A DNA stretch of 62,177 bases, filler included, from Jimgerdemannia flammicorona (lineage: Eukaryota), in assembly GCA_003990765.1 (NCBI GenBank). It is 3 parts of 3 records of this genome, joined end to end, with 100 filler letters (N's around TTAATTAATTAA, not from the genome) between each part and the next. Parts side by side here need not be neighbours in the genome. Positions count along the whole stretch, not along the records: positions 20,762 to 41,421 come from RBNJ01001625.1; 2 more parts are not named here. The stretch is one strand, 5' to 3'. The position numbers were made by a program, and so were the translations under genes. The notes under the pieces are model-generated. The model searched no databases. It saw nothing but the letters and a program-made list of their open reading frames with translations, and had not been told where the DNA came from. Of the stretch, positions 4,741 to 55,582 are shown in pieces (position 1 is the first letter of the stretch; each line of letters starts with the position of its first letter).

Positions 4741-5915
4741 ATGAATAAGAAGCTCTACTATAGAATTATTACCTACCTGAGACAGCAAAAGATATCCCAA
4801 CATCTGAAAGAATAAATATAAATAATTATAAATAGAATATGAAACTGATAGAGAAATATTAAAAAAAGAAAACTACTAAATATAAGAAAGAGTAAGCAAT
4901 GAAATCAGTATATAAACTTAGCCATCTGAGAGGAACAAATATATATAATAAAGTAAAAAGAATAATATAGTAGTCAGAAATAGAGAAAGATATCAGATAA
5001 TTTATCAAGATCTGTAACAAATATCAGAAATATAAATAAGACTAAAAAATCAGACCCCAGAATCAGTATATATAGAATTAGTATTCTTTATATATTGTGC
5101 AATAGATATAATTAGTTCTCTACTTTTGACTTTAACTAATAACTAATATATATATTATTATTATTATAGACCTTTTTACAAAATAGATAGAAATAAGATC
5201 TCTTAAGAAAGTCAATATATAGTTAATTACTGATTTATTTTACAAAGAAATTATCTATCAATTCAAGACCCAAATATAAGTAACTATAGATAGAGAAATA
5301 GAATTTGTAAACCAGTTCTTTGAGGTTCTTTATAAGAAATATAAGATCTAGTACATTTAGACTATAGCTTATTACTCTCAAAGAAATAGATAAGCAGAGA
5401 ACTAACAAGATCCTCAAGAATGTTATCACTAAGATCTGTAATAACTATGAAAACTGAAATCACTATCTGCTAATAGTATTATCTATTCTTCAAGATATCT
5501 GATTACAAAGTACCTATTTTACTCTTCAAGAAATACTATTTAGAAAAGAAAGTTCTTTAGAAACTCTATTATTCAATAGAAATAATATATGAAAATATAT
5601 AGATATAGATATGTATATAAAAACTATACCAAATTAAAAGAAGACCAAAGATTATATAACTAAGGTGCAGACTCTACAATAGAATAATACAGAGAAGATT
5701 TATAAGCTCTTAGAAATTATTAAGATAAGAGAGAAAATTCTGATATATTAGAATATAGTAGAAGCTTCATAGTTATAAAAACTGAAGTCTAATTGAGAAA
5801 AATCTTACTTTATATAGGATATATATAAAAGGAACTATCTTTTGGCTATAAAAACTCTTAGGTATAATTATCTCTACTACTATCTATTGAAACTGACTTA
5901 AGAAGTATATATCAT
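4741..5915 (+). pseudogene. Integrase ORF of element A (own ATG, MNKKL...)
   Basis: ATG 28 nt after the first base of the RNase H stop (TGA 4713). Decayed HHCC region and core (IDLFTK.IE, YYSQ), C-terminal LKKY. Confidence 0.75.
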
Positions 5916-9866: not shown

Positions 9867-9903
<37 letters not shown>

Positions 9904-10727: not shown

Positions 10728-10998
10728 AAAAAACCTCGTACAATAATTGCTGTTTAACTATTAGGGTATTCCGTCAGAATAAAAATAGATAGGACATTTG
10801 CCGGGTCTAGACCGTCCAGCATTCATTGCACTATCCAATATTATCAACTTTTCATACAGGGTGTCCCTTATAAACATTATTCCGAAATTAGTCACGGCCA
10901 ATTGGTTCAAACCTGGGCATAATGTAATAAGCTACCATGCATGGGTCAGATACATATTCTCCTTTCCACTCAATCTGAATCTGAACCAACTCTTAATT

Positions 10999-20661: not shown

Positions 20662-20761
20662 NNNNNNNNNNNNNNNNNNNNNNNNNNNNNNNNNNNNNNN
20701 NNNNNTTAATTAATTAANNNNNNNNNNNNNNNNNNNNNNNNNNNNNNNNNNNNNNNNNNNN
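20662..20761. other. Assembly gap/linker (N-run with TTAATTAATTAA)
   Basis: An identical 100-nt spacer recurs at 41422-41521. Confidence 0.97.
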
Positions 20762-23800: not shown

Positions 23801-26688
23801 ATCTAGTATTCAAGCCATCAATAGAACTCTGAGAAAGATATCACCTCCTTCTGATAGAAGAATAAATCTATGACCAGATATCACTAATTCACATTCCCAT
23901 CTAAAACCGGGGCTTTGAAATAGTGACAATCTCTAAAGGAATAACATTGGGATATTTTGAACTACTGATAGATATCTATGAGGAAGAAGCCTTTGAATTT
24001 TTGGGAAATAGCAAGCCCTTTCCAGTGAAACTAATAATATTAGAGAGGAAGACTCAGCAATCAAAGCCATTAATATCAAAACAACTCTAACTAAGGACCA
24101 GCAACAATAGATACAGAAGTTGATAAAAGAATATGAAGATATATTTATCACTATAATCAATAACTTCCCACTATATCAATATAGAGAATATATTATATAT
24201 AGAAGATACCAAACTAATCCAATAGTGCCCCTACTAAATACCATATTATCTGATTAAGTTCAAATAATAATATATAGATAAAATGCTATAAAATGGAGTT
24301 ATCAGATCCTCATCAAGCCCTTGGACTTTACTAGCAATCATAGTACCAAAGAAAGAAGAATGGAGACTAGTTGTAGATTTCAGGAAACTCAATAAGATTA
24401 CTATAGAAGATACCTACCCACTACTCAGAATTGATGACCTCCTCAATGCTCTAGGAAAAGCCAAGTATATAACCACTACTGATCAGTTTCAAGAATTCCA
24501 AGTAATACCTATTACTGAGAATAATATTTGCAAGATGGCCTCCATTATCAGATAAGGATAGTTTGAATACCTCCAAATGCTATTTAGACTCTATAATATG
24601 TCAGCCTCATTCTAGTGAATGATAAACTATATCTATTAGAACCATATTGGAAAAAATGTACTAGTATATATAGATGATATAATCATCTACTCTGAGACAT
24701 TTGAATAACACTTGTAAGACCTCTGTAAAGTATTTGACACCATCTGAAACTCAGGACTCAGACTCAATACCAAGAAGTACTTCTTTAGAAAACACTAAGT
24801 TAAATATCTGAGATATGTGGTTTCAGCTAAGGAAACCCATACTGATCTACATAAGATAGAGAAAGTTAAGAATTATCCAACTTCTATTTCAGCAAAGGAA
24901 GCTTTATCCTTTCTCATATTGATATCTTACTACTAGTGATTTATTCTAAGATTTTCAGACAAGGCAGTCCCACTATATAATATTTCCAAGAAAGACCAAC
25001 CATTCTACTAGAAAGAAGAACAACAGAAGTCCTTTGACCTACTTAAGAAGGCTCTCACTAAAGCCTCTGTCTTAGTGTAATCAGACTTTGATAAACCATT
25101 CATTCTAACAACTAATATATCTGCTCTTGGACTTAGATCAATTCTATTCCAGTAAGATGATCAGAAGAAAAAATATATCATTGAGTATACTAGTAAGGCC
25201 ACTAACAAAACACAAGTGAACTGTGGAGCTACCAAGCTAGAATGTCTTACAGTAGTATAGGCTATAGATCACTTTAGACACTATCTTTTAGAAAAGAGAT
25301 TTGTTCTTATCACTAACTACTAAGCTTTATAATAGTTGTTCAACAATAGGAATCTTTGCTAGATGGATCATATCTCTGTAAGAATATCAGTTCACTACTA
25401 TCTATAAGAAAGGTATCAAGAATTCCAATATAGATACTCTATCAAGAATTCCATGAACTCAAGTAAAGGAGTTCCTATAAGAAAAGACTGCTTCCTATTT
25501 ATCCAAATAAATCAAGAACTATGCCTTGCTCTCATCTGGAGGCTGTACCACAGAAGCTTCAAGAAAGGAATTCAGCCAGTCCATAAGCTGTTTATTCAAA
25601 GAAATTTTAAGAAATTTCAAGAAGACAATGATAAACTTTAGAGAGTAGAAGGAGATCAATATACCTGAGTTCTATAAGAAGATAAAATACCAAAGATACT
25701 TATAACCAACTATGATCAAAATGCATACTGAGAAATTGAAGCCACTATTACAAGAATCAAGAAGAGATACTGGTGGCCAAAAATGAGAAAATAAATTTCA
25801 ACTTACATTCAACAATGTGATATCTGTCAAAGATACTGATAAAAGCCAACTGATAAAGTATTACTAATACTAATCACAGTATCAGCTAGAGTCTTTTAGA
25901 GACTAAGAATAGATATTATTAGTTCTCTATTAGTAACCTGCTAAGGAAGATGCTATATTCTCACTATTGAAGATCACCTAACAAAATGGCCTAAAGCTTT
26001 CACCATTGAGACTGCTGATGCTCAGACAATTATTGAAATTTTATATAATGAAATTTTCAGCCACTATGGGGTCTCCAAGGAAATCATCACAGACTAAGGC
26101 TGAAAATTTGTCAACAAAGTCATGAAGACCTTAGTAAGCAACTTCAAGATTAAACTATGCCCAACAACAGCCTACTACTCATAAGCCAATAGACTTACTG
26201 AACAAATGAACCAGACCATCAAGTAAGGCCTCAGCAAAACTAGAGATCAGCTAAACTGAGATATATATCTTTCAGTAATCCTATTCAGTATTTATACTTT
26301 AAAGACAACTACTATGCAACAAATCCCTTTTTATTTAGTATATGGCCAAGAAGCACAAGACCCTAATGAGCTAATCCAGTTAAATTTGACAAAACAAGTC
26401 ACTGAAGAGATCATCTGATTATATAAAGTATGCCAACAAGTATAAGGATTTATTGCCAAAGTATAAGAATAGCAAAAGAAGTATTATAACTGCAAAGCTG
26501 ACCTAGAACCTCTACTTATTGATCAATAAGTCTTGGTATATTATACTATCATAGAAGGAAACTAGAGTATCAAACTTGAACTGAAATGAGAAGAACCTTA
26601 TCTCATATATCAAGTATTTATGAATCATACTTATTAACTCAAGATCTTGGATAGAGTTATACTTAAGAGTAAGATATATTATAACTAT
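20852..26688 (+). mobile_element. Decayed Ty3/Gypsy element B: gag knuckle, protease, Cys-rich insert, dUTPase, RT, RNase H, separate integrase; cut by element C
   Basis: CFNCRNQGHIQRFC near 21080, ILIDT near 21812, dUTPase GYDL/EEGVIDQNY at about 23290-23640, RT SSPW/DFRKLN/YIDD at 24310-24680, RNase H 25095-25456, integrase RYWWPKM..CDIC to 26688. Confidence 0.9.
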
Positions 26689-28240
26689 TATAACAGTGAC
26701 TCCAGAATGATGACATCAGTATAGGAGACAGTCTTTTCTTACAAGCTACCATATCAGAGCACAAGAAGATTATACAATATATGAGATAAGTAATGATGAC
26801 CAACTGTAAGTCATTGTGACCACAGTACAAGTATCTTGAGGAATATTAAAGAAGGATCAAGGAACTGCAGTAGCAGCAACCAATAAGACCCACCAATTCC
26901 AAAATAGCTCAAAGATTTACCACAAACAAAATACCTGCTGCCTACCAAACCTAAAGGTCAAGAAACTACCAAGGCATCTCAGTTGAAGAAAGGATATTCC
27001 AAGACATCAGAAGAGCCATGAGGACTCACTCAAGAAGGGCTCCTAGTATCAATCTGAGTACTGGTGACCCTTATCACTATATCCTCTACTGTTGTAAAAT
27101 GGAAACCAGGATCACCATTGCTACTGAATGCCTCTAAATATAGCAGAAGTATGAAATAGGAAACCTCCTCTGCCAGGAGTTTCCACAGGCCAGCCCTCAA
27201 GAGCTACAAAATGCCACTCCCATGGATATATGTAAGGCAAGGATGGCTAAGAAGATCCATCAGATCTTCAGACATGTATCATGGTCAATTCCCAACTTAG
27301 AGTATGTTAGAATCTCAGACTTCAGAGACCTGTTATCTTGCCATATCAATACACTAGAAGCCAGAGTAGCCACAGAAGCCCAGTCCACTATCACCCTCAA
27401 TAGTAATGAAGTAGAAGACTTCTGATATCCCATCCTTCAGAACAAAGACCAATTCCTACAAGGATTGATCTCAGTATTCCAAGGCCCAAGCATCTAGGTT
27501 AGACCTCTCCAAGATCCCACATTTGTTCCCTATTTTGTAGAAAAGAACCTCATAGACTGGAGAGCTCCAGACCTCCTTCCTGCCACCAAACATGATGACA
27601 TCATTGCTGATGACATCATCCCATATAACATATATGAGATATATAATGAAGCATGTAAAGTATATGAAATACACAACCTATGTGATGATGATGAATTTGC
27701 AGACCTCATCTCCTTCAAAGACATCCTGACCTCTGATGATGAAGCCTCTATAGTCTTGAAAATTCTGCTCTAAGTCCCTTGATAATACTGAATAATACCA
27801 GTACCAATATTTTGATATAATACTGAATAATGCCAGCACTGGTATTTGGATGTGACACTGAATTATACTAGCATCTTGAACCTATACAACCATTAGTGCC
27901 AATCCTGGAACTTAGCAGTTTTTCCTGTCCTGGCATTTTATTTTAGTTATTGAATTTATATTTAGCTTTATATCTTAGCAACCATTGAATTATATTTTGT
28001 ATAAATACTCCTCTTATTTCCTCTGAAATAAAGTCAGTTCCTCTCAGTGCAATATATATACTTCCTTGTAAGCAATCTAAGAGATAACAAGACAGTTTAA
28101 AGATAAGAAGTTTGAGGACTATAAGACCTTAGAAAGGCACTCTAATAAAAACTTGCTTATAACAAACTTGAGTTAGTCTAAGAGATATACCTTGAAGAGA
28201 ATCTGGCATATTTGAAGAACTCAGCAACTACTATATGACA
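26689..28240 (+). repeat. 5' LTR of element C (1552 bp)
   Basis: Starts TATAACAGTGAC (decayed TGTAACGG) and ends TGACA. Homologous to 34413-34832, 54023-55582 and 47831-48330. About 38-bp repeats at 27780-27880; TATA/AATAAA at 27998-28032. Confidence 0.9.
26931..27773 (+). pseudogene. LTR U3-encoded accessory protein (281 codons, no frameshift, a few substitution stops)
   Basis: One continuous frame from ATA (ATG in the other copies) CCT GCT to CTG CTC TAA. Includes ORF 27222..27425 with KKIHQIFRH and an acidic tail. Confidence 0.75.
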
Positions 28241-28260: not shown

Positions 28261-30459
28261 TGATTCAAGATGAATCCCTCACTTTCAAGCTGAAAAATGA
28301 ACAACCCCCACAACAACTACTCTGACTACAAGAGTTACCCCTGCAAGAATTCAAGATAAGATGAAAATGCATCTCTTCATATTCTATAGATATACTACTG
28401 AAGAGTCAATCCTGACCTTCATTAAAGACTTTGAACAATTTGCCACCATACGAGCCCTTGGTATGGATGCACAATTGGCCCTTCTACCAGTCAGCCTCAG
28501 AGGACCTGTCAGAGACAAGTTCAATGCAGCCACTATTGCTGATAATGGTGCAGCTAAACTTACCAACATGAAGGCCTTCCTCAGAACAATATACTATACT
28601 GAAGAGATCAAGCAAGCTCTCAAGGATCAACTCAATACTATCTACCAAGGACTTAGTGAAGATCCCAACTCATTCTATACCTGAATCTGCCACCAGATTG
28701 TCTTGGCTGGCTATGATAATGCCCTCAAGGAATAAATAGCAAATTCAACCTTCCTTAAAGGAGTTCACTCTGAAATTGCCCTAGCAATCTAGTCTACCCC
28801 AGCTGCACTGACCCTTGATCAGAAAGTGGTCTTTGTATAGAGATATTGAACTATCAGACACTGTGCCAAACATTTAATAGAGAAAATAACTGATATTAAG
28901 ATAGAGCCATCAAAGCTAACTAGTATTATACTGACTATAGTTGTAAACAGACAACTAATCCCACCCACCCCCAAGGTAGCCAAAGCTGACCCAGTGAAAG
29001 ATCTTGCCAAGCAGTTTGCCGAGATGACTGTACCCTTGGTGATATTGTTAGAGAAGTCTGAAGCACCAACAGGAGACCAGTGCAAAGATTTGCAGCTGCT
29101 ACAGAAGAATACAATATTATATGCTTTAGATGTGGAGAAGAAGACCACTATATAAAGAATTGCATAACTGAAACAAGACACAAAGCCCAATCAAGCAATA
29201 CTAGCAGAACCAGAGAACAAACTAATGCAGTAGTCATCGAGGAGATTGGTGATACTGATGATGAAGAAAACTATGAGAAGCTTAAATTCTACCCTGCTAC
29301 TGAAGGTACCAGAACTCAGTCCAAGCTCTATGATAAGAAGAGCAACAGCAAGCCAGTTGGAAGACCAAAGAAGACCCCAGCTGTCACTATTCAAAGCAAG
29401 ACTCAATCTGAGGAGATTGATCAAGACATAGAGTTAGATAAAGCTGTCTGTCAAATTATCAAAGGCATTACTCCAGTCTCAGGAGAAAGCAAAAGCAAGA
29501 AGAAACAGAAGCTGCACAAGACCAAGATCCACCAGTATGATATTTACAAGAACCTTAAGGAATAGAAGGTCAATGTTACTTTTGGACAACTAGCTGAAGT
29601 TTCTGCCTTCAGACAACAGTTGAGAGTAGGACTTGCAACTACCACCAAGAATCAAGAGTACAAGATTATAGAAGCTCACAATATACAGGAAGAATCTGAA
29701 AACTCAGGTGAAGAATCTGAAGACCAGTGCAAGACATCAGCCTATACCCTATGTCAGATCGAAGACTGTATCTTTAATACCATCATTGATACCAGTGCTG
29801 AAGGATGCCTCATGAGCAAGAAGGCAATTGACAGCCTAGGTTGGGATATTGAAGAGTCCACTAAGATGGTCTATGTCATAGCAGATAATATATGAGCTAC
29901 CCTCCTTGGTAAAATCGGAGAAGTCTCCATCAAGATAGGAGGAGCTACTATCCCAGTAGACACGATTGTTATAAGTACCACTAATTATGACATCCTTATT
30001 AGCAACCAATGGCTTCACAAGACCAAGGCTATCATTGACATCAATGCTCAGAAGATATAGATCAATTATAGAGGAAGAAAGGTATGAGTCTCTATCAATG
30101 TCTACAAAGGAGTCCTACCAGATATGGAGAAAGGAGATGAAGAGGATACAGAAGTCTTCATGCACTCAGTGAATAAGAACAAGAACAAGACACTCAAGCT
30201 CACAGATGAGCAGTGGTACAACAAGATCATCAATAGCTATGCCCCTCAAGGAAGATGTCCCCATGGTACTCGAATGTACTGCTCTGAACACCTGAATGAC
30301 TGCTGGTCCTATATCAGTGAAGTCAGGAAAATCTGCCAACAGAAACATAAGCAAGAAGCTGCTGAAGTAAAAAGGAAAGCTGAAGAAGATGACCAGCCCC
30401 CAGAACTTCAGGCTGACAGTGATAATGAGGAGGAACAAGAATCAGACATCACCCTCAAG

Positions 30460-30864
30460 GTCAAGAAGTTTCACCCTGAAGCCAAGATCCCAGAATACAA
30501 GACTGAAGGAGTTATAGGAATGGACCTTGCCAGCATTCAAGATGCTATCCTTAAACCACAGACCACTACCCTACTTGGCACTGGAATTGGAGTCAAGTTG
30601 CCAGAAAACTATACCAGAATTATCAAGACCAGGAGCAGTCTGGCCAAAAGTGAAATCTCAGTTGAAGGAGGGGTAATTGACCCTGATTACACTGGTGAGA
30701 TCTTCCTCATAGTCAGGAATCACAACTCCACCACTCCATTTGAAGTCAAGAAGCATGACAGGATTGGCCAGATGCTGATTTACGAAATCAAGAAATCCAA
30801 GATCACTGAAGCCATCAAACTCATCAAGACCAAGAGAGGAGAACAAGGCTTTGGATCTACTGGA
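30460..30864 (+). CDS. Trimeric dUTPase domain within the Gypsy polyprotein (frame still open)
   Basis: All five motifs present: GMDL, RSSLAK, GVIDPDYTGEI, DRIGQML, RGEQGFGSTG. Confidence 0.92.
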
Positions 30865-31379
30865 AGAGGAGTCTATACCACTACCAAGATTACTGAACTT
30901 GAATACAAGAAAGACAAGGACCAGAACAAGCACACATACACTATTGGAGAAAACCTTCTCCTGGAAGAACAACTTCTCAAGATCCTGCACCAGAATGAAG
31001 AAGTACTTACAATCAAGAACCCAAGTACTACTATGAAGTTGACACTGGTGATACCAAGCCCATCTATCAGAAAGCCAGACCTATACCACCTACCTACAGA
31101 GAATGGCTGTGAGCAGAACTCAAGGAAATGGAAGAAGCCAGAATTATCAAGCAAGCTATTAGTCCCTGGGTTTCACTCATTGTCCTTGCTCCAAAGAAAG
31201 GAAGCAAGCCTGGAGAGTTTGTGTCAAGACTCTGCATTGACTACAGAAAGCTCAATGCCATCACCAAGAAGGATAGGCAGCCCTTGCCAAATATTCAAGA
31301 AATCCTTACCACCCTCAGAAGTGAAGCCAAATACTACACTACCTTGGATCTATTCTCAGGCTTTCATCAGATTGGTCTC

Positions 31380-31859
31380 TTTTTTTTTTTTTTTTTTTTT
31401 TTTATAGTCCCTTGGACTCCATCTTTATTACCAGTCTATGAATAAGTATACAATATCACTGCCCACTAACCGATCCCCATCTGGGGGCCCCACCCCACCT
31501 CTTCACAAATAAAGACCACCCTCTCACCAACAACTCCAACCCTCCCACCACTCTGACCACAGATTTTCACCACCAGGCGGCGCCTCCGACTCCCCTGCAG
31601 CCCCCAACCAAGCCACCAGCCTGTCAAGGTATCCTCCATAAGGAACTGCCACCTTGCCAACCGGCTCCCCAAGCTCTGTCGCTTCTCCTCCTCAAATACA
31701 AACAGCCAGTGGCCGGCCAGCCCAACCCAAATAGCCAATGCCCATCCTAGCATAATCCACTCTTCCCCTACCCCTCCTATCAATCGATCCCTCAGGTCCT
31801 CCCACCTCCCCCTTACATCATCACCCCTATGCCTTACCCCCAATCAGTCCCCAATGGCC
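31380..31859 (-). mobile_element. 5'-truncated LINE insertion with poly(A) tail inside the RT of element C
   Basis: Poly(T) from 31380. Minus-strand end AATAAAGATGGAGTCCAAGGGACTAT(A)n. TSD TTCAT(C/T)AGATTGGTCTC at 31363-31379 and 31860-31876. Confidence 0.92.
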
Positions 31860-32852
31860 TTCATTAGATTGGTCTCACTCAAGATGCCAGTGAGAAATCA
31901 GTCTTTATCATATCTGATATCATCTATATTTATCTGCAAATGCCATTTGGAATGTGCAATATCCCAACAAACTTCCAGTGAATGATGAATAGAGTCTTCA
32001 GCAATGAGATTGGAAAATGGCTCTTTGTCTATGTTGATGATGTGATCATCTTCAGCAATACTATATAGAAACATATCAATCACATACAGCTAGTCCTCAA
32101 GAAGCTCAAGGAGTATGGCCTTTACATCAAGCCCAAGAAATGCTAGTTAGCAGCTCAAGAAATCACCTACCTAGGACACCTCATCAATCAGATCAGAATT
32201 CACACAGACCCCATGAAGATTGAAGCTATTGCAGCCTACCCGAGACTCAGAATGACTACAGAAGACCATACCTTCTTTGGACTGGCCAGCTACTACAGAA
32301 GATTCATCAAAGGATATTCCAACATTACAGCACCTATCTATGAGCTACTGAAGAAGAAAACCAAATTCAAATGGACCAAGGAGTACCAAGAAACCTTCAA
32401 TGAACTCAAGACCAGGTTGACCCAAGTACCTATCCTCAGAAGATCAGATTGGAACCTAGAATTCATCCTGCAGACAGATGCAAGTGGCATAGGACTTGGA
32501 GCAGTCCTAGCTCAGAAGAAATATAGATATAAATATATCATCTCCTATGCAAGCTGAGGTACCTGCAGAGCAGAACAGAACTATGAGTCATGCAAGCTTG
32601 AATGCTTAGCAGTAGTTTGGACAGTAGACAAGTTCCACTACTACCTAGATGGAAAATAATTCACCATTCAAACAGACCATTCTACTCTTGCCTAGCTATT
32701 CCACACTCTGAACCCCAAAGGAATATATACCAGATGGATCTACAGACTGCAAGAGTATGACTGTACTATTAAGTACTACTCAGAAAGAACCAACACCAAT
32801 ACTGATGCACTTTCAAGGATACCCTGAAATACCCCCATCAAGACTATTCAAC

Positions 32853-34050
32853 ATGAATAAGGAGCTACACTATGGATTAATTAGCTACCTTGGACAGCAG
32901 AAGATGCCCAACCACCTTGAACTCTGGACAATCACTATCATCAACTGGACTTGAAAACAGTTTGAACTAGATAATACTATACTCAGAAAAGGAGAAAAGC
33001 TAGTAATATCTGAATACAAGAAGTATCAAGTAATGAAGGAAGTATATGAGCAAGGATATCTAGGAGGAACTAATATATATGATAAAGTAAAAAGAACCAT
33101 GTGGTGGTCCAAGATAGAAGAAGACCTGTACCAATTTGTCAAAGAGTGTGACAAGTGCCAAAAACAGAAATAAGATCAGCAAGACCAGACACCCAGATCA
33201 TTAAGAATAGAGCCTATCCCCTTCTACCACATCACAATGGATATCATTGGGTCACTACCTGTAATACTATCAGGAAACTGCTATATTATAGTTATTGTAG
33301 ACCTCTTCACCAAATGGATAGAGGCAGGAGTATTATAAGAAGTCAATGCCCTCTCTATAGCTGACTTCCTATACTGAGAAATCATCTGCCACTACAAGAC
33401 ACTAAAACAAATCACAACAGACCACAGCACCAAATTTATCAATAGATTCCACAAGATAATGTATCAGAAATATAAGATCTAGCACATCAAGACCACTATA
33501 TACCACTCTCAAGAAAATGGACAGATAGAAAGAACCAACAAGACCCTCTAGAACATCCTGGTGAAGATCTCAGAGATATATGAGAGTTGGGATAATTACC
33601 TCCCAACTGCCCTCTCTGTCCTATGAGACATATGGTCACAGAGCATACACTTTACCCCAAAAGAACTGCTCTTTGGAGAAGAAGATTCTGATGGAACCTC
33701 AGCTACAAATCTAGACCTAACTTGGAGATAGGTTGATGCAGAAATCCAGAGACTACACCAAATCAGAAAGAAGGCTGAAGATTACATTATCAAGTTACAA
33801 GTACTGATAAGAAAGAATACAGAACAGAATCACAAGACCCTAGAACCCATCTGAATCAGAGAAAAGGTCCTACTATATTGAAATATGATAGAAGCCTCAT
33901 AGTCATGAAAACTAGAGCCCAAATAGGAAGAACTCTTCTATATACAAGATATCAAGGAAACTACCTTCTGGCTTAGAAAAATCTCAGAGACCATACTGCC
34001 TACTATGGTATATAGGAACAGACTCAAGAGGTACTACAAACCTATATAAG
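32853..34050 (+). pseudogene. Integrase ORF of element C (own ATG, +1 frame relative to RT-RH)
   Basis: MNKELHYGLISYL..., WWSK..CDKCQ, VDLFTKWIEA, TDHS, YHSQENGQIERTN, NRLKRY. Confidence 0.85.
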
Positions 34051-34412
34051 AGAAGCAAATATAATGACTGCCTGTGAGGTTCTAGTCTACAAATCATAAC
34101 AGCATGTCCTGTGACCAGCAGGCTATCTGTCTAGACCATTCTCTAAGGAATACAGCACCAGCAACTACTTATTCATGAAACTTTCAAAGCTAGAGGAGTT
34201 TGAACTATCAACTGATTGGTCAAGATCAGAATCAGATCCTTGCTCTAAATGAAGGGAGTGACCCTTCACCATCATACCAAAATACAAAGAGAAGATGTTA
34301 GCTCATAAATACCACTTTTCAACCCCTTGCCAGAGATTATGGGATCAGCAAATTTTTCAAAACTGGATCAATGAATAAGGATGCTCAAGAAGATCCTTAT
34401 TTAGGAGGAAGA

Positions 34413-34832
34413 TATAATAGTGACCCCAGAATGATGACATCAATATAGGAGATAGTCTTTCCTTGCAAGCCACCATATCAGAGCACAAGAATATTATATG
34501 GCATACAAGATGAGCAATAATGACCAACTGTGAGTCATTGTGACCACAGTACAAGAATCTTGAGGAATATAAAAGAAGAATCAAGAAACTGCAGTAGCAG
34601 CAACCAACAAGACCCACCAATCCCAAAATAGCTTAAAGACTTACTACAAACAAAATGCCTGCTGCTCACCAAACCTCAAGGTCAAGAAACCACTAAGGTA
34701 TCTCAGTCAAAGAAAGGATGTTCTAAGATATCAGAAGAGCCATAAGGACCCACTCAAGAAGGACTCCTAGTATCAACCTGGATACTGGTGACCTTTATCA
34801 CTATATTCTCTACTACTGTGAAATAGAAACCA
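34413..34832 (+). repeat. Truncated 3' LTR of element C
   Basis: Follows PPT AGGAGGAAGA; matches 26689-27108 and stops abruptly at the LINE. Confidence 0.88.
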
Positions 34833-41421: not shown

Positions 41422-41521
41422 NNNNNNNNNNNNNNNNNNNNNNNNNNNNNNNNNNNNNNNNNNNNTTAATTAATTAANNNNNNNNNNNNNNNNNNNNNNN
41501 NNNNNNNNNNNNNNNNNNNNN
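41422..41521. other. Assembly gap/linker
   Basis: N-run with TTAATTAATTAA. Confidence 0.97.
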
Positions 41522-44210: not shown

Positions 44211-44229
44211 TTGTGTCACCTGAATGTTA

Positions 44230-47830: not shown

Positions 47831-50800
47831 CCTGGCAGAGAAGGTTTTCTATTTTGTACTTCTGCTATATTTGAAGATATTCAGTAGCAATAGTGATCCT
47901 TGTTTCCATTTCATAGTGGTAGAGAATAAAGTGATAAGGATCTGCAGTACCCAGGTTGAGGCTAGGAGTTCTTCTTATATGGGTCCTCATGGCTCTTCTG
48001 ATGTCTTGGAACATCCTTTCTTCAACTGAGATACCTTGGTAGTTTCTTGATCTTGAGGTTTGGCAAGCAGCAGATATTTTATTTGTAGTAAGTCTTTGAG
48101 CTATTTTGGGATTGATGGGTCTTGTTGAGTTACTGCTACTACAGTTCCTTGATTCTTCTTTTATATTCCTCAAGATGCCTGAACTGTGGTCACAATGACT
48201 CACAGTTGATCATTATTACTCATCTCATAGTCTGAGTCATGCTATATGATCTTCTTGTGTTCTGATCTGGTGGCTTATAAGGAAAGGCTGTCTCTTGTAC
48301 TGATGTCATCATTTTGAGGTTATTATTACATCTTTCTTCTAAATGAGGATCTTCTTGAATATCCTTATTTATTAGTCCAGTCCTGAAAAATTTGCTGATC
48401 TCATAACCTCTGACAGGGGGTTAAAAAGTGATGTTTATGGGCTAGCATCTTCTCTATATATTTTGGCATAATAGTGAAGAGTTATTCCCTTCATATAGAG
48501 TAAGGGCCTGATTCTGATCTTGACTAATCAGTTGATGGTTCAAACTTCTCTGGCTTTGAAAGTCTCATAAGTAGTTGCTGGTGCTATATCTCTTAGAGAA
48601 TGGTCCAGACAGATAGCCTGCTAGTCATAGGATATGCTGTTATGATTTGCAGACTAGAACCTCACAGGCAGTCATCATGTTTTGCTTCTCTTATATAGGT
48701 TTATAGTACTTCTTGAGTCTGTTTATATATACTGTGGTAGGCAGTATGGTCCCTGAGATTTTTCTAAGTCAGAAGGTAGTTCTCTTGATATCTTGCATAT
48801 AGAAGGGTCCTTTCTATTTAGGCTCCAGTTTTCATAACTATGAGGCTTCTACCATATTTTGATATAGTAGGACCTTTTCTCCAATTTGGATAGGTTCTAG
48901 GGTCTTGTGATTCTTTTCTGTATTCTTTTTTGTCAGTGCTTGTAACTTGATAATATAATCTTCAGCCTTCTTCCTGATTTGGTATAGTCTCTGGATTTTT
49001 ACATCAACCTATCTCTAAGTTAGATCTAGATTTGTAGCTGAGGTTCCATCAGAATCTTCTTCTCTAAAGAGCAGTTCTCTTGGAGTAAAGTGTGTGCTCT
49101 GTGATTATATGTCTTATAGGACAGAGAGGGCAGTTGGAAGGTAGTTATTCCAATTCTCATATGTCTGAGATCTTCATCAGAATGTTTTTAAGGGTCTTGT
49201 TAGTTCTTTCTGTCTATCTATTTCCTTGAGAGTGGTATGTGGTGGTCTTGATGTACTGAATCCTGTATTTCTGATACATTATCTCATGGAATCCATTGAC
49301 AAATTCTGTGCCATGGTCTGTGGTGATTTGCCTTGGTGTCTTGTAGTAGTAGATGATTTCTTGGTGCAGAAAGTTAGCTATAGAGAGGGCATTGGCTTCT
49401 TGTAATGCTCCTGCTTCTATCCATTTGGTAAAGAGGTCTACAATAACTATAATATAGCACTTTCCTGATAGTGTTACTGGTAGTGGCCCAATGATATCCA
49501 TTGTGATGTGGTGAAAAAGGATAGGCTCAATTCTTGATAACCCAGATGTCTGGTCTTGCTGATATTGATTCTGTTTTTGGCACTTATCACACCCTTTGAC
49601 AAATTGGTACAGGTCTTCTTCTATCTTAGACCACTATATGGTTCTTTTTACCTTATCATATATGTTGGTTCCTCCTAGGTGTCCTTTATATACTTCCTTT
49701 ATTACTTGATACTTCTTTTGTTCAGATATTATAAGCTTTCCTCTTTTTCTAAGTGTGGTATTGTCTAGTTCAAACTGTTTCCAAGTCTGGTTAATGATAG
49801 TGATTGTCCAGGGTTTGAGATAGTTGGATATCTTTTGCTGCTCAAGATAGCTGATTAATCCATAGTATAACTTCTTATTTATATTGAATAGTCTTGATGA
49901 GAGTGTTTTAGGATATCCTTGAGAGTGCATCAGTATTGGTATTGGTTCTCTCTGAGTAGTGCTTGACAGTACAATCATACTCTTACAGCCTGTAGATCTA
50001 TCTGATATGTATTCCTTTAGAGTTTAGAGTATGAAATAGCCAGGCAAGAGCAGAATGGTCTGTTTGAATGGTGAAGTATTTCTCAGCTAGGTAGTAGTGG
50101 AACTTATCTACTATCCAAACTACTACTAAGTATTCAAGCTTACATGACTCATAGTTCTGTTCTACTCTGCAAGTACCTTGACTTACATAGGAGATGACAT
50201 ATTTATATCCATCTTTCTTCTGAGCTAGGACTGCTCTAAGTCCTATAGTGCTTACATCTGTCTGCAGAATGAATTCTAGGTTCCAATCTGGTCTTTTGAG
50301 GATAGGTATTTGGGTCAACCTGGTCTTGAGTTCATTGAAGGTTTCTTGGTATTCCTTGGTTCATTCAAATTTGGTTTCCTTCTTCAGTAGCTCATAGATA
50401 GGTGCTGTAATATTAGAGTATCCTTTGATAAATCTTCTGTAGTAGCTGGCCAGTCCAAGGAAGACATGGACTTCTATAGTCATTCTGGATCTCAGGTAGG
50501 CTACAATAGCCTCAATCTTCATAAAGTCTGTATGGATTCCAGTCTGGTTGATGAGGTATCCTTGGTAGGCAATTTCCTGAGCTGCAAACTTGCATTTCTT
50601 GGACTTGATGTAGAGGCCATACTCCTTGAGCTTCTTGAGGGCTAGCTATATATAGTTGATATATTTCTGTGCAGTGTTGCTGAAGATAATCATATTATCA
50701 ACATAGACAAAGAGCTATTTTCCAATCTCATTGCTGAAGACTCTGTTCATCATTTGCTGAAAACTTGCTGGGGTATTGTACATTCCAAATAGTATTCACA

Positions 50801-53800
50801 GGTAGATATAGGTGGCATTAGGTGTAATGAAGACTGATTTCTTACTGGTATCTTGAGTGAGACCAATCTGATGGAAGCCTGAGAACAGATCTAAGGTGGT
50901 GTAGTATTTGGCTTTACTTCCAAGAGTGGTAAGGATTTCTTGAATATTTGGCAAGAGCTGCCTATCCTTCTTGGTGATTGTATTGAGCTTCCTGTAATCA
51001 ATGCAGAGTCTTGGGGCAAACTCTCCAGACTTGCTTCCTTTCTTCAGGATAAGGATAATGAGTGAAGCCCAGGGACTAATAGCTTGCTTGATGATTTTGA
51101 CTTTTTTCATTTCTTTGAGTTCTACTTGCAGCCATTCTCTGTAGACAGGTGGTATAGATCTGGCTTTCTGATAGATGGGCTTGGTATTGCCAGTGTCAAC
51201 TTTATGATAGTACTTGGGTTCTTGATTGTGGATATCTCTGAAGTCTGTAGCAAGTACTCCTTTATTCTAGTATAGGATCTTGAGAAGTTGTTCTTCCAGG
51301 GGAAAGTTTTCTCCAATGGTATATATGTGCTTATTTGGATCCTTGTCTTTCTTGTACTCAAGTTTGGTAATCTTAGTAGTGGTATAGACTCTTCTTCTAG
51401 TAGATTCAAAGCCTTGTTCTCCTCTCTTGGTCTTGATGAGTTTGATGGCTTCAGTGATCTTGGGCTTCATGATTTCATGGATCAGCATCTGGCCAATCCT
51501 ATCATACTTCTTGACTTTGAATGAAGTGGTGAAGTTGTGATTCCTGACTATGAGAAAGATCTGCCAGTGTAATCAGGATCAATTACTCCTCCTTTAACTG
51601 AGATTTTGCTTTTGGCCAGACTGCTTCTGGACTTGATAATTCCAGCATGGTTCTCTGACAACTTGACTCCAATTCTAGTACCAAGTAGGGTGGTGGTCTG
51701 TGGTTTGAGAGTAGCATCTTGAATACTGGCAAGATCTATTCCTATAGCTCCTTTAGTCTTGTATTCTGGGATCTTGGCTTCAGAGTGAAACTTCTTGACC
51801 TTGAGAGTGATGTCTGGTTCTTATTCCTCCTCATTATCACTGTCAGCTTGAAGCTTTGGGGGCTGGTCATCTTCTTTGGCTTTCCTTTTTGCTTCAGCAA
51901 CTTCTTGCTTATACTTCTGTTGGCAGATTTTTCTGACTTCACTGATACAGGACCAGCAGTCATTTAGGTGTTCAGAGCAGTATATCCTAGTACCATGGGG
52001 GCATCTTTCTTGAGGGGCATAGTTATCAATAATCATGTTATACCACTGCTCATCTGTAAGCTTGGGTGTTTTGTTCTTATTCTTGTTCACTGAGTGCATG
52101 AAGACTTCTGTGTCCTCTTCATCTCCTTCCTCTATATCTGGTAGAACTCCTTTGTGGACATTGATAGAGACTTGTACCTTTCTTCCTCTATAGTTGATCT
52201 GCATCTTCTGGGTATTGAGATCAATGATGGCCTTGGTCTTGTAAAGCCATTGGTTGTCAATGAGGATATTATAGTTGGTGGTACTTGTAACAATCACATC
52301 TACTAGGATGGTAGCTCCTCCTATCTTGATGGAGACTTCTCAGATTTTGCTAAAAGGGATAGCTTATATATCATCTGCTGTAACATAGACCATCTTGGTG
52401 GACTCTTCAATGTCTCAGTCTAAGCAGTCAATTGTCTTCTTACTCATAAGACATCCTCTAGCACCAGTATAATGATGGCATCAAAGATACAATCTTTAAT
52501 CTGATATGGGGTATAGGCTGATATCTTATGCTGGTCTTCAGATTCTTTGCCTAAGTCTTCTTAATCATCTTCTTATGTATTGTGAGCTTCTATAATCTTA
52601 TACTCTTGATTCTTAGCAGTAGTTACAAGTCTTACTATTAACTGCTGTCTAAAGGCAGAGACTTTGGCTAGTTATCTAAAAGTAGCATTGACCTTCTGTT
52701 TTTTGAGGTCCTTGTAGATATCATACTGATAGATTTTAGTCTTGTATAACTTCTGTTCCTTCTTGCTTTCACTTTCTCCTAAAACTAGAGTAGTGTCTTC
52801 AATAATTTAGTAGGTAGCTTCATCTAACTCCATGTCTTGATCAATCTTCTTAAGTTGGGTCTTGCTTTAAATAGTGACAGCTGGGGTCTTCTTTGGTCTT
52901 CTAACTGGCTTGCTGTTGCTCTTCTTGTCATAGGGCTTTGACTGAGTTCTGGTACCTTCAGTAGCAGGGTAGAATTTGAGCTCCTCATAGTATTCTTTAT
53001 CATCAGTATCACCAATCTCCTTGATGACTACTGTATTGGTTTGTTCTCTGGTTCTGCTAGCATTACTTGGTTGGGCTTTACATCTTGTTTCAGTTATGCA
53101 ACTCTTTGCATAGTGGTCTTCTTCTCTATATCTGAAGCATATGATATTGCATTCTTCTGTAGTAGCTGCAAATCTCTATACTGATCTCCTGTTGGTGCTT
53201 CAGACTTCTTTAACAACATTATTAAGGTGTGTAGTCATCTCAGCAAACTGCTTGGCAAGTTCCTCCACTGGATCAGCTTTGATTACCTTAGGGGTAGGTG
53301 GAGGTAGTTGTCTGTTTACAACTGTAGTGAGTATGATACTAGTTGGCTTTGATGACTCTATCTTGATACCTGTTATTTTCTCCATTGAGTATTCAGTGGG
53401 ATGTCTAGCAGTCCAATATCTCTGTATAAAGATCACTTTCTAATCAAGGGTCAGTATAGAGCTAGGGTAGATCAGATTGCTAGGATAATTTCAGGGTGTA
53501 CTCTTTTGAGGAAGATTGAATCTGCTATTTGTTCCTTGAGGGCATCATCATAGCTAGCTAAGACAATCTGGTGGCAGATTCAGATATAGAATGAGTTGGG
53601 ATCTTCACTGAGTCCCTGGCAGATAGTATTGAGTTGATCCTTGAGAGCTTGCTTGATCTCTTCAGTATAGTATGTTATTCTGAGGAAGGCCTTCATGTTG
53701 GCAAGTTTGGCTATATCATTATTAGTAATAGTGGCTATATTGAACTTATCTCTGGCAGGTCCTCTGAGGCTGACTGGTAGAAGGACCAATTGTGCATCTA

Positions 53801-55582
53801 CACTAAGGACTTATATGGTGGCAAATTGTTCAAAGTCTTCAATAAAGACCAGGATTAACTCTTCAGTAATATATCTATAGAATATAGGGGGATGCATTTC
53901 CATCTTATCTTGAATTCTTGCAGGGGTAACTCTTATAGTTAGGTAGTTATTGTGGTAGTTATTCATTTTTCAGCTTGAAAGTGAGAGATTCATCTTGAAT
54001 CACCAGCCAATGGGCACCAAGTTATCATATAGTGATTACTGAGTCCTTCAAATATATCAGATTCTCTTCAAGGTATATCTCTTAGACTAACTCAAGTTTG
54101 TTATAAGTAAGTTCTTATTGGAGTACCTTCCTAAGATCTTATAGTTCTCAAACTTCTTATCTTTAAACTGTCTTATTATTTCTTGCAAGAAATTGTATAT
54201 AAGTAAACTTAACTAACTTTATTTCAGAGGAAATAAGAAGGATATTTATATAAAATATAATTCAATGGTTGCTAAGATATGAAGCTAAATATAAATTCTA
54301 ATAATCAAATAAAATGCTGGAACACAGAAAACTGCAAAGTTCTAGGGTCAGCACAAATGGTTGCACAGGTTTAGAATGCTGATATAATTTCAGTGATATA
54401 GGAAAATGGTGCTGGAATAATTCTGAGTCACAAGATCAGAATACCAGTAGATGAATAGCTGTTATATAGGAAAAGGATGCTGGTATAATTCAGTGTAACT
54501 AAAGGACTTAGAGCAGAAAGTTCAGGACTATGAGGGCTTCATCCTCATCATTGCTGTCCTCAAAGGAGATGAGGTTTGCAACTATTTCAGTCTCATCATA
54601 TAGGTCATGTATTTTATATGCTTCATATATATTATATGGAATAATATCATTACTGATGATGTCATCACATTTGGTGGTGGAGAAATCAGGGACTCTCCAA
54701 TCTATGAGGTTCTCTTCCACAAAATAAGGAACAAATATGGAATCTTGGAAAGATCTAACCTAGATGCTTGGGCCTTAGAATATTGAGATCAATCCTTATA
54801 GAAATTGATCTGGGTTGTTCTGGAAGATGAGATGCCAGAAGTCTTCTACTTCATTACTATTGAGAGTGATAGTGGACTGGGCTTCTATTGCCACCCTGAC
54901 TTCTAGTGCATTGATATAGTAGGCTAACAGATCTCTGAAATCTGAGATTCTAATATACTCCAAGTTAGGGATCAACTATGGTGTATATCTGAAGATCTGA
55001 TGAATCTTCTTTACTATCCTTGTTTCATATATATCCATGGAAGTGATATCTTATAACGCTTGAGGGCTGGCCTGTGGGAACTCTCAGTAGAGAAGGTTTC
55101 CTATTTTGTACTCCTGCTACATTTAGATACATTTGATAGTAATAGTGATTCTTGTTTCCATTTTATAGTAGTAGAGGATAAAGTAATAAGGATCTGCAGT
55201 ACTTAGATTGAGACTAGGAGTTCTTCTTGTATGAGTCCTCATGGCTCTTCTGATGTCTTAGAATATCCTTTCTTCAACTGAGATGCCTTAGTGGTTCCTT
55301 GACCTTGAGGTTTAGTGAGCAGCAGGCATTTCATTTGTGGTAAGTCTTTGAGCTATTTTGGGATTGGTGGGTCTTATTGAGTTGCTACTACTATGGTTCC
55401 TTGATCCTTCTTTTATATTCCTCAAGATATCTGAACTGTGGTCACAATGACTTACAGTTAGTCATTATTACTCATCTCATAGCCTGAGTTATACTATATG
55501 ATCTTCTTGTGTTCTGATCTGGTGGCTTGTAAGAAAAGGCTGTCTCTTGTACTGATGTCATCATTCTGAGGTCACCATTACA
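47831..55582 (-). mobile_element. Ty3/Gypsy element D, same family as C, opposite strand
   Basis: 5' LTR 54023-55582 starts TGTAATGGTGAC. Truncated 3' LTR 47831-48330 follows the PPT. gag about 52700-53900, dUTPase about 51400-51800, RT about 50450-51110, RNase H about 49910-50290, integrase 48690-49882. Confidence 0.93.
54508..55329 (-). pseudogene. LTR U3-encoded accessory protein in the element D 5' LTR (274 codons)
   Basis: ATG CCT GCT at 55329 is in frame with ORF 54508..54720; homologous to 26931-27773. Confidence 0.75.

What the first reader, a model, noticed from the sequence alone, without database searches (positions are those of the whole stretch)
32810..32900. Integrase encoded as a separate ORF with its own start codon in all four Gypsy elements
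Seen: RNase H ends LSRIP-stop or a decayed equivalent (TGA 4713, TGA 25454, TGA 32825, TAA 49910 minus). The integrase frame starts MN(K/Q)(E/K)L downstream (ATG 4741, ATA 25507, ATG 32853, ATA 49882). The offset is 28 nt (+1 frame) in A, C and D and 53 nt (+2 frame) in B, so IN is out of frame with RT-RH in three families. C-to-T decay cannot change a frame. In element C, gag through dUTPase lies in one frame. Established: canonical Ty3/Gypsy integrase is cleaved from a single Pol polyprotein. Inference: IN is made by reinitiation, internal initiation or a subgenomic RNA and must be packaged independently of Gag-Pol.
Basis: partly seen in the sequence, partly recalled or inferred. Interest (0 to 1): 0.78.

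Follow-up and report, generated by a model that had tools for sequence, protein, structure and literature searches.

The report
Gypsy retrotransposons with stand-alone integrase gene
The four dead Gypsy-type jumping genes in this fungal DNA belong to a large group whose integrase is a separate gene starting on top of the stop codon of the preceding gene, instead of being cut out of one long polyprotein as in textbook elements.

Summary
But the stops after LSRIP are decay products. Intact relatives of family C/D end pol 14 residues after ALSR, at ...TIQHE (3 of 3). That is the TAA inside ATGAATAA, 8 bases overlapping the integrase ATG (A 4741-4748, C 32853-32860, D decayed). B carries a decayed ATGA-type overlap.

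The split itself is real. Six of six intact integrases of the same family keep the MNKEL methionine. An uninterrupted metagenome element has a 1577-codon CCHC-protease-dUTPase-RT-RNase H frame, then a 418-residue integrase ORF joined by ATGA. On an RT-RNase H tree, 55 proteins without fused integrase, plus copy D, form one supported clade with no fused member. It includes Rhizophagus and Rhizopus proteins.

How integrase is translated is not shown. Termination-coupled reinitiation fits the overlapping junctions here. A subgenomic RNA is the main rival, because relatives have spacers of up to 521 bases. No slippery heptamer or unusual fold was found.

This scan reported the same layout at least eight times on other pieces of this genome. 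Seven paper searches found no description of it.

The parts
32853..32860 (+). Element C junction: integrase ATG (32853-32855) and the pol-frame TAA (32858-32860) within ATGAATAA, an 8-nt stop/start overlap
   Evidence: Intact relatives P0277, P0402 and P0403 end ...TIQHE at this position.
32825..32827 (+). It aligns with Arg in intact relatives.
   Evidence: P0277 reads ...SRTPRNTPIKTIQHE and P0016 reads ...SRIPRN....
32853..34067 (+). Element C integrase ORF (decayed, 16 in-frame stops): N-terminal extension, H2C2 zinc finger and rve core
   Evidence: (78% identity to intact P0001)
31862..32860 (+). Element C RT (3' part) and RNase H, pol frame up to the overlapping TAA
   Evidence: (84% identity to P0277)
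29062..31407 (+). Element C CCHC knuckle, aspartic protease and dUTPase in one phase. The gag N-terminal part (28340-29065) and the RT start (31026-31379) lie in other phases through private indels.
26689..26988 (+). Element C 5' LTR (the part reported by the repeat finder)
   Evidence: family D5, 88% identity to 34413-34712
34413..34712 (+). Element C 3' LTR (the part reported)
   Evidence: family D5
4741..4748 (+). Element A junction ATGAATAA: integrase ATG 4741, pol-frame TAA 4746. Upstream decay stops include the TGA at 4713.
   Evidence: The pol tail has the same length as in clusters 2 and 3 and ends ...YE-stop.
4741..5908 (+). Element A integrase remnant, heavily decayed, in several frames
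25507..25510 (+). Element B junction ATAA: decayed start ATA 25507 with pol-frame TAA 25508-25510, the shape of an ATGA overlap. Two earlier in-frame stops, including the TGA at 25454.
   Evidence: The pol tail resembles P0028 and L002 (...FLERLPKRGPFL...).
25507..26685 (+). Element B integrase remnant
   Evidence: 30% identity to P0001
49875..49882 (-). Element D junction ATAAATAA: decayed start ATA 49882-49880 and pol-frame TAA 49877-49875. Premature TAA at 49910-49908.
48652..49882 (-). Element D integrase remnant, with one private frame break near 49100
49878..53903 (-). Element D gag-protease-dUTPase-RT-RNase H remnant. dUTPase (from P0016 residue 942) to the RNase H end is one frame. Private frame breaks lie further upstream.

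Best explanation
The four copies are dead members of three families within one clade of Ty3/gypsy LTR retrotransposons. In this clade pol ends a few residues after the RNase H motif ...ADALSR, and integrase is its own cistron. In fused elements a variable linker connects RNase H to the integrase N-terminal helix. Here that linker is replaced by a stop and a conserved AUG placed 2-3 residues before the helix (M-N/D-x-x-L-Y..YL..G..P).

In the families of this window the AUG overlaps the pol stop: AUGAAUAA in A, C and D, and an AUGA type in B. I take the most likely route to be termination-coupled reinitiation on the full-length RNA. The ribosome ends the roughly 1500-codon gag-to-RNase H frame, and a fraction restarts at the AUG a few bases back. 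That would give integrase in lower amounts than Gag-Pol, as a free protein that must join the particle or the cDNA non-covalently.

Shown: the separate ORF, the conserved start, the overlap, and the spread across the clade. Inferred: reinitiation, stoichiometry and recruitment.

My odds: separate cistron with its own start about 0.85; reinitiation as the route in these tight-junction families about 0.45. The confidence given for this explanation is for the whole statement, mechanism included.
For: Same family, intact.
- 3 of 3 pol fragments that are 90% or more identical to each other (P0277, P0402, P0403) end ...TIQHE. P0277 is 84% identical to copy C.
- 6 of 6 integrases of cluster 1 contain MNKELYYGLISYL. 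Three were called from that Met and three from upstream Mets in the same frame.
- In the sister family, the 3 cluster-3 proteins that reach the C-terminus end ...YNHHE, and its integrases read ...IIMNKELYYG. The shared HE-stop and MNKEL are what the same ATGAATAA overlap would give; no DNA of these relatives was read.

Intact element L001. A 1577-codon open frame (CCHC, protease, dUTPase, RT, RNase H) is followed by a 418-residue integrase ORF with an ATGA overlap.

Eleven metagenome junctions with both RNase H and the integrase N-terminus. All have a stop, then an ATG-led integrase ORF. Integrase lies in the -1 frame in 6 (L001, L002, L004, L005, L008, L016), the +1 frame in 1 (L036) and the same frame in 4 (L009, L012, L013, L027). 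The gap from stop to ATG is -4, 2, 9, 30, 63, 63, 74, 89, 136, 158 and 521 nt. There is a purine at -3 in 9 of 11 and G at +4 in 9 of 11.

Library-wide search with P0001. Of the 150 best hits, 14 align to query residues before 25. All 14 are 632 aa or shorter, and 12 of them begin within their own first 6 residues. No protein over 700 aa aligns before query residue 49.

Alignment of 14 stand-alone integrases: the Met is invariant.

RT-RNase H tree. It held 94 rows; 26 of the 120 hits were dropped because my motif regex missed them or the segment was too short. One clade (SH-aLRT 98) holds 41 short-tail proteins, 14 with a C-terminal extension but no integrase, and copy D, with 0 fused. Outside it, 33 of 38 are fused. 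The clade includes named Rhizophagus irregularis and Rhizopus proteins.

Reinitiation after long ORFs at AUGA or UAAUG junctions is established for several viruses, for hypovirus CHV1 in a fungus, and for the SART1 retrotransposon (PMC10275272, passages; PMC2699510, abstract start in the listing).
Against: No RNA or protein data. No RNA run was available, so nothing shows which RNA is translated or where integrase starts.

Relatives in the same clade have spacers of 74-521 nt, and 4 of these 5 contain 1 to 8 intervening ATGs; L004 (89 nt) has none. Simple reinitiation explains these poorly, so one mechanism may not fit the whole clade.

Relatives also carry a third ORF after integrase at variable distances. 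That hints at subgenomic RNAs.

No unusually stable fold surrounds five junctions (z from -1.24 to +0.27). I did not find or test any rRNA-complementary element.

In intact copies of this family the integrase frame stays open for at least 32 codons upstream of the AUG and holds other Mets (P0401). The true start is therefore not proven.

I could not read the DNA of the intact same-family contigs. The overlap in intact copies is deduced from the two protein ends plus the decayed window copies.
Confidence: 0.45

Rival explanations
1. Integrase is a separate cistron but is translated from its own subgenomic RNA, made by splicing or from an internal promoter, as env is in retroviruses and errantiviruses. 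The stop/start overlap in this window is just tight packing.
For: Spacers of 74-521 nt occur in relatives of the same clade, and 4 of these 5 hold 1-8 intervening ATGs (L004, 89 nt, has none). A third ORF follows integrase in L001-L004 and L013 at variable distance, so these elements are polycistronic anyway. A conserved motif of about 45 nt sits just upstream of the integrase ATG in L003, L020 and L030 while the rest of the spacer varies. It could be a promoter or acceptor element.
Against: No transcript data of any kind. I identified no splice acceptor or promoter. In C there is no GT between the ALSR codons and 30 nt past the ATG, and I saw no clear acceptor there. Six of 11 junctions are 63 nt or less with no intervening ATG, which fits a ribosome-coupled route. 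I recall no subgenomic RNA for a pol domain in LTR elements.
Confidence: 0.3
2. Integrase is made as a Gag-Pol-IN fusion by programmed ribosomal frameshifting in the overlap: +1 in A, C and D, and -1 in B, L001 and L002.
For: The two frames overlap by at least 96 nt in intact copies of this family (P0401 has 32 codons upstream of the Met), by 118 nt in L002 and by 34 nt in L001. Ty1 and Ty3 use +1 and retroviruses use -1 frameshifting at gag-pol (PMC5911963 passage, for Ty3).
Against: No X_XXY_YYZ heptamer lies in the pol frame of the overlaps of L001, L002 or B. No unusually stable structure was found. In L004, L005, L008, L016 and L036 the integrase frame opens only downstream of the pol stop, so the frames do not overlap and a single shift cannot work; in L009, L012, L013 and L027 integrase is in the same frame behind a stop (two in L009). 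The Met is conserved at the homology boundary in all of them. I did not test +1 shift sites rigorously.
Confidence: 0.08
3. A short intron spans the junction, and splicing restores a continuous RNase H-integrase frame.
For: The hosts are eukaryotes. Metagenome gene callers ignore introns. Some spacers are AT-rich and 63-158 nt long, which is intron-sized.
Against: In L001, L002 and the window families the conserved RNase H tail and the conserved integrase N-terminus are only about 24-45 nt apart or overlap. That leaves no room for an intron without deleting conserved residues. The junction of C has no GT at all. The relative frame differs among relatives, yet the ATG is always kept.
Confidence: 0.03
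4. There is no biology here: one inherited indel in dead copies makes the frames differ.
For: C and D do carry private frame-breaking indels and many stops.
Against: Intact relatives at every distance show the same split. The trait maps to one clade with 0 fused members among 56 rows.
Confidence: 0.03

Closest known systems
Canonical Ty3/gypsy (Metaviridae) elements, including dUTPase-bearing fungal families such as PosPlaTy3-5 of Postia placenta (PMC2864245, passages) and the dUTPase-bearing Juno, Vesta and TelKA elements of rotifers (PMC5408684, passages)
   Same: LTRs; CCHC gag; domain order protease, dUTPase, RT, RNase H, integrase; H2C2 and rve integrase. dUTPase lies between protease and RT, as in PosPlaTy3-5 and the rotifer families.
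   Different: [quoted passage not shown] Here pol stops 1-30 residues after ADALSR and integrase has its own ATG.
Termination-reinitiation after long ORFs: calicivirus VP1/VP2, influenza B, hypovirus CHV1 UAAUG (PMC2699510, abstract start in listing), non-LTR retrotransposon SART1 UAAUG (cited in PMC10275272, passages), and victorivirus AUGA (recalled, no call)
   Same: The stop of a long upstream ORF overlaps or abuts the AUG of the next ORF (AUGA, AUGnnUAA). Two of the known cases are in a fungal host or in a retrotransposon.
   Different: None of those concerns an LTR element or an integrase. The cis elements those systems need (TURBS, pseudoknot, downstream structure) were not found here. 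Dependence on termination is untested.
Foamy viruses (Spumaretrovirinae): Pol is made from its own spliced mRNA, not as a Gag-Pol fusion (recalled, no call)
   Same: A replication enzyme of a retroelement is made apart from Gag and has to be recruited to the particle on its own.
   Different: There the whole Pol (protease, RT, integrase) is separate, and the route is a spliced RNA. Here only integrase is separate and the route is unknown.
Elements with other breaks in gag-pol: CsRn1-like elements with fused, separate or -1 overlapping gag/pol ORFs (PMC2582038, abstract passage); Tj1 with stop-codon suppression (PMC5911963, passage)
   Same: The expression strategy at an ORF boundary varies between related LTR elements.
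   Different: Those breaks are between gag and pol, not between RNase H and integrase.

Membership tests
Ty3/gypsy (Metaviridae) LTR retrotransposon | Flanking long terminal repeats | tested here: met
   C: 26689-26988 against 34413-34712, 88% identity. D: 47837-48136 against 55089-55388, 87%. No LTRs were identified for A or B.
Ty3/gypsy (Metaviridae) LTR retrotransposon | Domain order protease, RT, RNase H, integrase (integrase after RT) | tested here: met
   Pfam hits in order on C, tblastn map of all four copies, and intact L001.
Ty3/gypsy (Metaviridae) LTR retrotransposon | Gag with a CCHC zinc knuckle | tested here: met
   In C the hit is weak (17.4 bits, below the cutoff of 20.8). In intact L001 it scores 29.1 bits, above the cutoff.
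Ty3/gypsy (Metaviridae) LTR retrotransposon | Integrase released from one Pol polyprotein (the usual layout, not a formal criterion) | tested here: not met
   Pol ends 14 residues after ALSR in intact same-family proteins. Integrase is a separate ORF in 11 of 11 junctions resolved in this clade.
Ty3/gypsy (Metaviridae) LTR retrotransposon | Primer-binding site, polypurine tract, target-site duplication | not tested
   Not examined.
Termination-reinitiation (stop/restart) systems | Stop of the upstream ORF overlapping or within a few bases of the downstream AUG | tested here: met
   ATGAATAA in A and C and its decayed form in D; an ATGA-type remnant in B. L001 has ATGA and L002 has TGAtcATG. 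Not met in relatives with 74-521 nt spacers.
Termination-reinitiation (stop/restart) systems | A cis RNA element near the junction that holds the ribosome (TURBS, pseudoknot or downstream structure) | tested here: inconclusive
   Five 150-nt windows around junctions fold no better than shuffles (z from -1.24 to +0.27). There are too few alignable intact sequences for covariation. I did not test rRNA complementarity.
Termination-reinitiation (stop/restart) systems | Downstream translation depends on termination at the upstream stop | not testable with these tools
   Needs reporter assays.
Programmed ribosomal frameshifting | Slippery site in the overlap of the two frames | tested here: not met
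   No X_XXY_YYZ heptamer in the overlaps of L001, L002 or B. I did not scan rigorously for +1 sites. Five relatives (L004, L005, L008, L016, L036) have no overlap at all.
Programmed ribosomal frameshifting | The downstream frame has no conserved start of its own | tested here: not met
   The Met is invariant in 14 of 14 aligned integrases and present at all 11 junctions.
dUTPase-bearing Gypsy elements | dUTPase domain inside gag-pol | tested here: met
   PF00692: 91.8 bits in C, between protease and RT; 111.4 bits in L001.

The most novel reading that the evidence does not exclude
An old and species-rich clade of Ty3/gypsy elements of Mucoromycota-type fungi (Rhizophagus, Rhizopus, this genome and many soil contigs) has given up the Pol-integrase fusion altogether. 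It makes integrase by ribosomal stop-and-restart after a frame of about 4.5 kb. If so, the amount of integrase is set by reinitiation efficiency, and free integrase must find the particle or the cDNA without being tethered to Gag. That would be the first LTR retroelement lineage of this kind, and a natural eukaryotic model for reinitiation after very long ORFs.
Probability: 0.35. Interest if true: 0.75.

Novelty: new variant of a known kind. Interest (0 to 1): 0.6.

Why it matters
Textbook LTR retrotransposons and retroviruses deliver integrase into the particle as part of Gag-Pol. That fixes how much integrase there is and guarantees it is packaged. A whole clade that encodes integrase as a free-standing cistron raises three questions. 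How is a downstream ORF translated in a eukaryote? How is the dose of integrase set? How does the enzyme reach the reverse-transcription complex?

There are practical consequences too. Annotation pipelines that expect a fused Pol will call such elements truncated or non-autonomous. Stand-alone integrase ORFs get labelled as bacterial-type transposases: two of the stand-alone integrases are named 'transposase InsO family protein' by their source.

The clade includes elements of arbuscular mycorrhizal fungi and Mucorales, so experiments are feasible.

Tried and rejected
- **Whole genome of the window:** none is held. Copies elsewhere in this genome could not be surveyed.
- **RNA evidence:** The look-up of sequencing runs on the whole of element C listed no RNA holder. 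Read laying was therefore not used. This says nothing about expression.
- **DNA of the intact same-family contigs** (P0001, P0277, P0399): not obtainable. A viral-contig scan with P0001 found nothing.
- **Frameshift signals:** no -1 slippery heptamer in three overlaps.
- **RNA structure:** five junction windows are no more stable than shuffles.
- **Stop/start coupling between integrase and the third ORF in relatives:** no consistent pattern; first in-frame ATG at -122, -26, +35, +115 and +132 nt from the first base of the integrase stop.
- **Scanning after termination:** counts of intervening ATGs against shuffles were not significant for any single locus (P of zero ATGs 0.09-0.85).
- **Which frame codes in the overlap:** comparing conservation of the pol-frame tail and the integrase-frame extension between the two sister families, by eye, gave 5 of 13 against 3 of 11 identities. 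That is too few to tell.
- **Literature:** seven searches and passages of six papers gave no description of a stand-alone integrase ORF in a Ty3/gypsy element. Subscription journals, Repbase entries and supplements (for example Additional file 1 of PMC2864245, a .doc I did not open) were not seen and may hold such structures. One search was rejected for a slash in a term and repeated. PMC1190309 (SART1) is not held.
- **Tree:** 26 of the 120 proteins were left out because my regex did not find the RNase H end motif (24) or the segment was under 380 residues (2).
Full report
**What is in the window**

The window holds four decayed Ty3/gypsy copies.

Element C lies on the plus strand. Its LTR parts are 26689-26988 and 34413-34712, 88% identical. 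It reads as follows:
- gag N-terminal part, 28340-29065;
- CCHC knuckle, aspartic protease and dUTPase, 29062-31407;
- RT start, 31026-31379;
- a 476-nt foreign insert;
- RT and RNase H, 31862-32860;
- integrase, 32853-34067.

Element D lies on the minus strand. Its LTR parts are 47837-48136 and 55089-55388. It is the same family as C: 87% identity over RNase H and integrase, with 181 transitions against 16 transversions.

Element A is AT-rich. Its pol runs 449-2003, is interrupted, and resumes as RNase H at 4371. Its integrase is 4741-5908. It is a related family, 62-64% identical to C and D with 221-223 transversions. Element B (pol 24295-25476, integrase 25507-26685) is distant, about 51% identical.

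Earlier notes of this scan call the genome an Endogonales fungus. I did not test that.

**Checking the observation**

Integrase is in the +1 frame relative to RNase H in A, C and D, and in the -1 frame in B.

The stops after LSRIP are not the ends of pol, however. Read through them, the RNase H frame continues for 10 more codons in C (NTPIKTIQHE). It ends at a TAA that lies inside ATGAATAA, so stop and start overlap by 8 nt: A 4741-4748, C 32853-32860, and D 49882-49875 with the start decayed to ATA. In B the frame ends at a TAA that shares two bases with the decayed start ATA (25507-25510), which is the shape of an ATGA overlap.

I noticed this overlap after reading earlier notes of the scan that describe CATGAATAA junctions elsewhere in this genome. 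I then tested it independently.

**The decisive test: intact relatives of the same family**

A search with the RNase H tail of C found P0277, 84% identical, whose C-terminus is ...NADALSRTPRNTPIKTIQHE. All 3 members of its 90% cluster end in ...TIQHE. They have Arg where C has TGA 32825.

A search with the integrase of C found P0001, 78% identical and with no stops. All 6 members of its cluster contain MNKELYYGLISYL. Three were called from this Met and three from Mets further upstream in the same frame.

In the sister family (62% identity in RNase H), the 3 proteins that reach the end read ...RRTQ(P/T)PYNHHE, and the integrases read ...HTIIMNKELYYG. The shared HE-stop and MNKEL are what the same overlap would give.

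The listing also suggests that pol end and integrase start share contigs. P0277 and P0399 are both on a contig of 1529 nt. P0409 and P0427 are both on one of 6479 nt. I could not read those contigs.

**The copies also carry private indels**

That is true, but these copies have indels too. C changes phase near 29.06 kb and near 31.0 kb, where D and intact relatives do not. D changes phase at other places. The claim that gag through dUTPase lies in one frame in C is therefore wrong. A frame difference seen only in dead copies would not have been enough. The intact relatives carry the argument.

**How wide the trait is**

Among the 120 best longer proteins matching the RT-RNase H of C:
- 43 end 35 residues or fewer after the ADALSR-type motif;
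- 18 have longer tails without an integrase zinc finger;
- 35 are fused to integrase;
- in 24 my regex did not find the motif.

The short-tail set includes named Rhizophagus irregularis proteins (...ADALSRII; one cluster has 96 members) and Rhizopus proteins (...SRLGY).

I built an RT-RNase H tree of 93 of these proteins plus copy D (IQ-TREE quick, LG+G4). One branch with SH-aLRT 98 unites 41 short-tail proteins, 14 extension proteins and copy D, with no fused protein among them. Outside it, 33 of 38 are fused. Copy D sits in a fully supported group of 6 rows with five dUTPase-bearing proteins. The method is the quick one, and copy D has a long branch, so the placement of single rows is less sure than the overall pattern.

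A search of the 1.84-billion-protein library with P0001 points the same way. The five most similar stand-alone proteins (43-48% identity) begin exactly at the query's Met 19. Of the 150 best hits, 14 align before query residue 25; all 14 are short, and 12 start within their first six residues. Long, fused proteins align only from residue 49 onward.

**Junction DNA in relatives**

The metagenome scan returned 80 loci. By my regex:
- 16 are fused, with the RNase H motif in the same ORF as integrase;
- 11 have the RNase H motif, then a stop, then an ATG-led integrase ORF;
- L003 has pol with a long extension, then a stop, then integrase;
- the rest are at contig ends or were not resolved.

In the 11 split loci the gap from stop to ATG is -4 (ATGA, L001), 2, 9, 30, 63, 63, 74, 89, 136, 158 and 521 nt. 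Integrase is in the -1 frame in six, the +1 frame in one and the same frame in four. A purine is at -3 in 9 of 11 and G at +4 in 9 of 11. Six junctions of 63 nt or less hold no intervening ATG. Four of the five longer ones hold 1 to 8; L004 (89 nt) holds none.

L001 is an uninterrupted example. It has 1577 open codons with CCHC, protease, dUTPase, RT and RNase H, followed by a 418-residue integrase with H2C2 and rve domains.

**Anatomy of the split**

In fused outgroups, RNase H is followed by a variable linker of roughly 40-70 residues. Then comes a helix of the type ...DP.L..I..YL....LP..., then the HHCC finger (for example P0065 and P0077). In the split clade the Met sits 2-3 residues before that helix (M-N/D-x-x-L-Y...YL..G..P), and pol ends inside what used to be the linker. 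The break therefore lies exactly at a domain boundary.

**How integrase is made**

The one constant across all junction types is the ATG at the start of the homologous region. The relative frame and the spacing vary.

- *Frameshifting.* It cannot be general. In five relatives (L004, L005, L008, L016, L036) the integrase frame opens only downstream of the pol stop, so the two frames do not overlap. In four more, integrase is in the same frame behind a stop (two in L009). No -1 slippery heptamer lies in the overlaps of L001, L002 or B.
- *An intron that restores the fusion.* It has no room in the tight junctions, and the junction of C has no GT.

So integrase starts at its own AUG, which I put at about 0.85.

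For the families in this window, where the AUG overlaps the stop, the best-known precedent is termination-coupled reinitiation. It is documented for caliciviruses, the fungal hypovirus CHV1 and the SART1 retrotransposon (PMC10275272 passages; PMC2699510 listing). I put this at about 0.45.

Several things argue against it:
- I found no special RNA fold.
- Relatives have long spacers containing ATGs.
- Relatives carry a third ORF after integrase at variable distance. That would fit subgenomic RNAs, which I put at about 0.3.

No RNA run could be listed for this DNA, so the question stays open.

That free integrase must be recruited to the particle without a Gag tether follows from the layout. It is inference.

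**Novelty**

Seven full-text searches and the passages I read describe fungal and other Gypsy elements with one ORF, or with gag and pol ORFs and integrase inside pol (PMC2864245, PMC5408684). None describes a stand-alone integrase. Subscription papers, Repbase and supplements were not seen.

The scan itself has reported this layout at least eight times on other pieces of this genome. My calls agree with those notes and add three things for this window: the same-family proof that the named stops are decay products, the RT-RNase H clade test, and the range of junction spacings.

Noticed in passing
window 31380-31855 (flanks 31359-31379 and 31856-31876): A 476-nt insert splits the RT of element C. 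It begins with a run of 24 T and is flanked by a 21-nt direct duplication of the RT sequence (19 of 21 identical). This looks like a poly(A)-tailed retroposed sequence on the minus strand with a target-site duplication. It accounts for one phase change in C.
   Followed up: partly
window 2004-4370: Element A's pol is interrupted between RT (ends 2003) and RNase H (resumes 4371) by about 2.4 kb of much more GC-rich DNA (46% against 25-28%). It holds a 213-codon open frame on the minus strand (3627-4268) with no Pfam hit.
   Followed up: partly
window about 7750-12560: About three tandem copies of a unit of about 1.87 kb (repeat families D2-D12, 79-99% identity). Their open frames carry protein kinase domains (9808-10608, 11457-12362).
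   Followed up: partly
window 17289-17629: Twelve or more tandem copies of a 21-nt unit lie inside a 271-codon open frame (16806-17621) with no Pfam hit. Next to it, on the minus strand, is a 3'-5' exonuclease domain ORF (17843-18604).
   Followed up: no
window 34000-47000 and 56000-62000: Stretches with extreme GC skew (+0.43 to +0.49, then -0.53). A reverse transcriptase ORF at 38577-39332 belongs to none of the four Gypsy copies.
   Followed up: no
window 20662-20761 and 41422-41521: Two pairs of 44-base runs of N (masked or withheld stretches).
   Followed up: no
L001 5951-6652; L002 2403-3119; L003 5842-6333; L004 2239-2715; L013 2011-2484: Relatives carry a third open frame of about 120-230 codons after integrase, with no Pfam hit. 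Its first in-frame ATG lies at -122, -26, +35, +115 or +132 nt from the first base of the integrase stop. Element C has no room for it between integrase and the 3' LTR.
   Followed up: partly
L003 4455-4500; L020 1-48; L030 about 497-540: A conserved motif of about 45 nt (GGTGAAAGCG.AAGTGT...GTGA..ACAGCC) lies just upstream of the integrase ATG in three loci whose spacers otherwise differ. It could be a cis element for integrase expression in that subfamily.
   Followed up: partly
proteins P0024, P0026, P0030, P0042, P0046, P0051, P0071, P0075, P0094; L003, L030: One subclade has a Cys/His-rich C-terminal extension of up to about 360 residues after RNase H in place of integrase (CD.ENHH.H..C..C motif). 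Integrase is again a separate ORF downstream.
   Followed up: partly
proteins P0130 and P0137: Two stand-alone integrases of this clade are named 'transposase InsO family protein' by their source. Automatic annotation is mistaking them for bacterial IS transposases.
   Followed up: no
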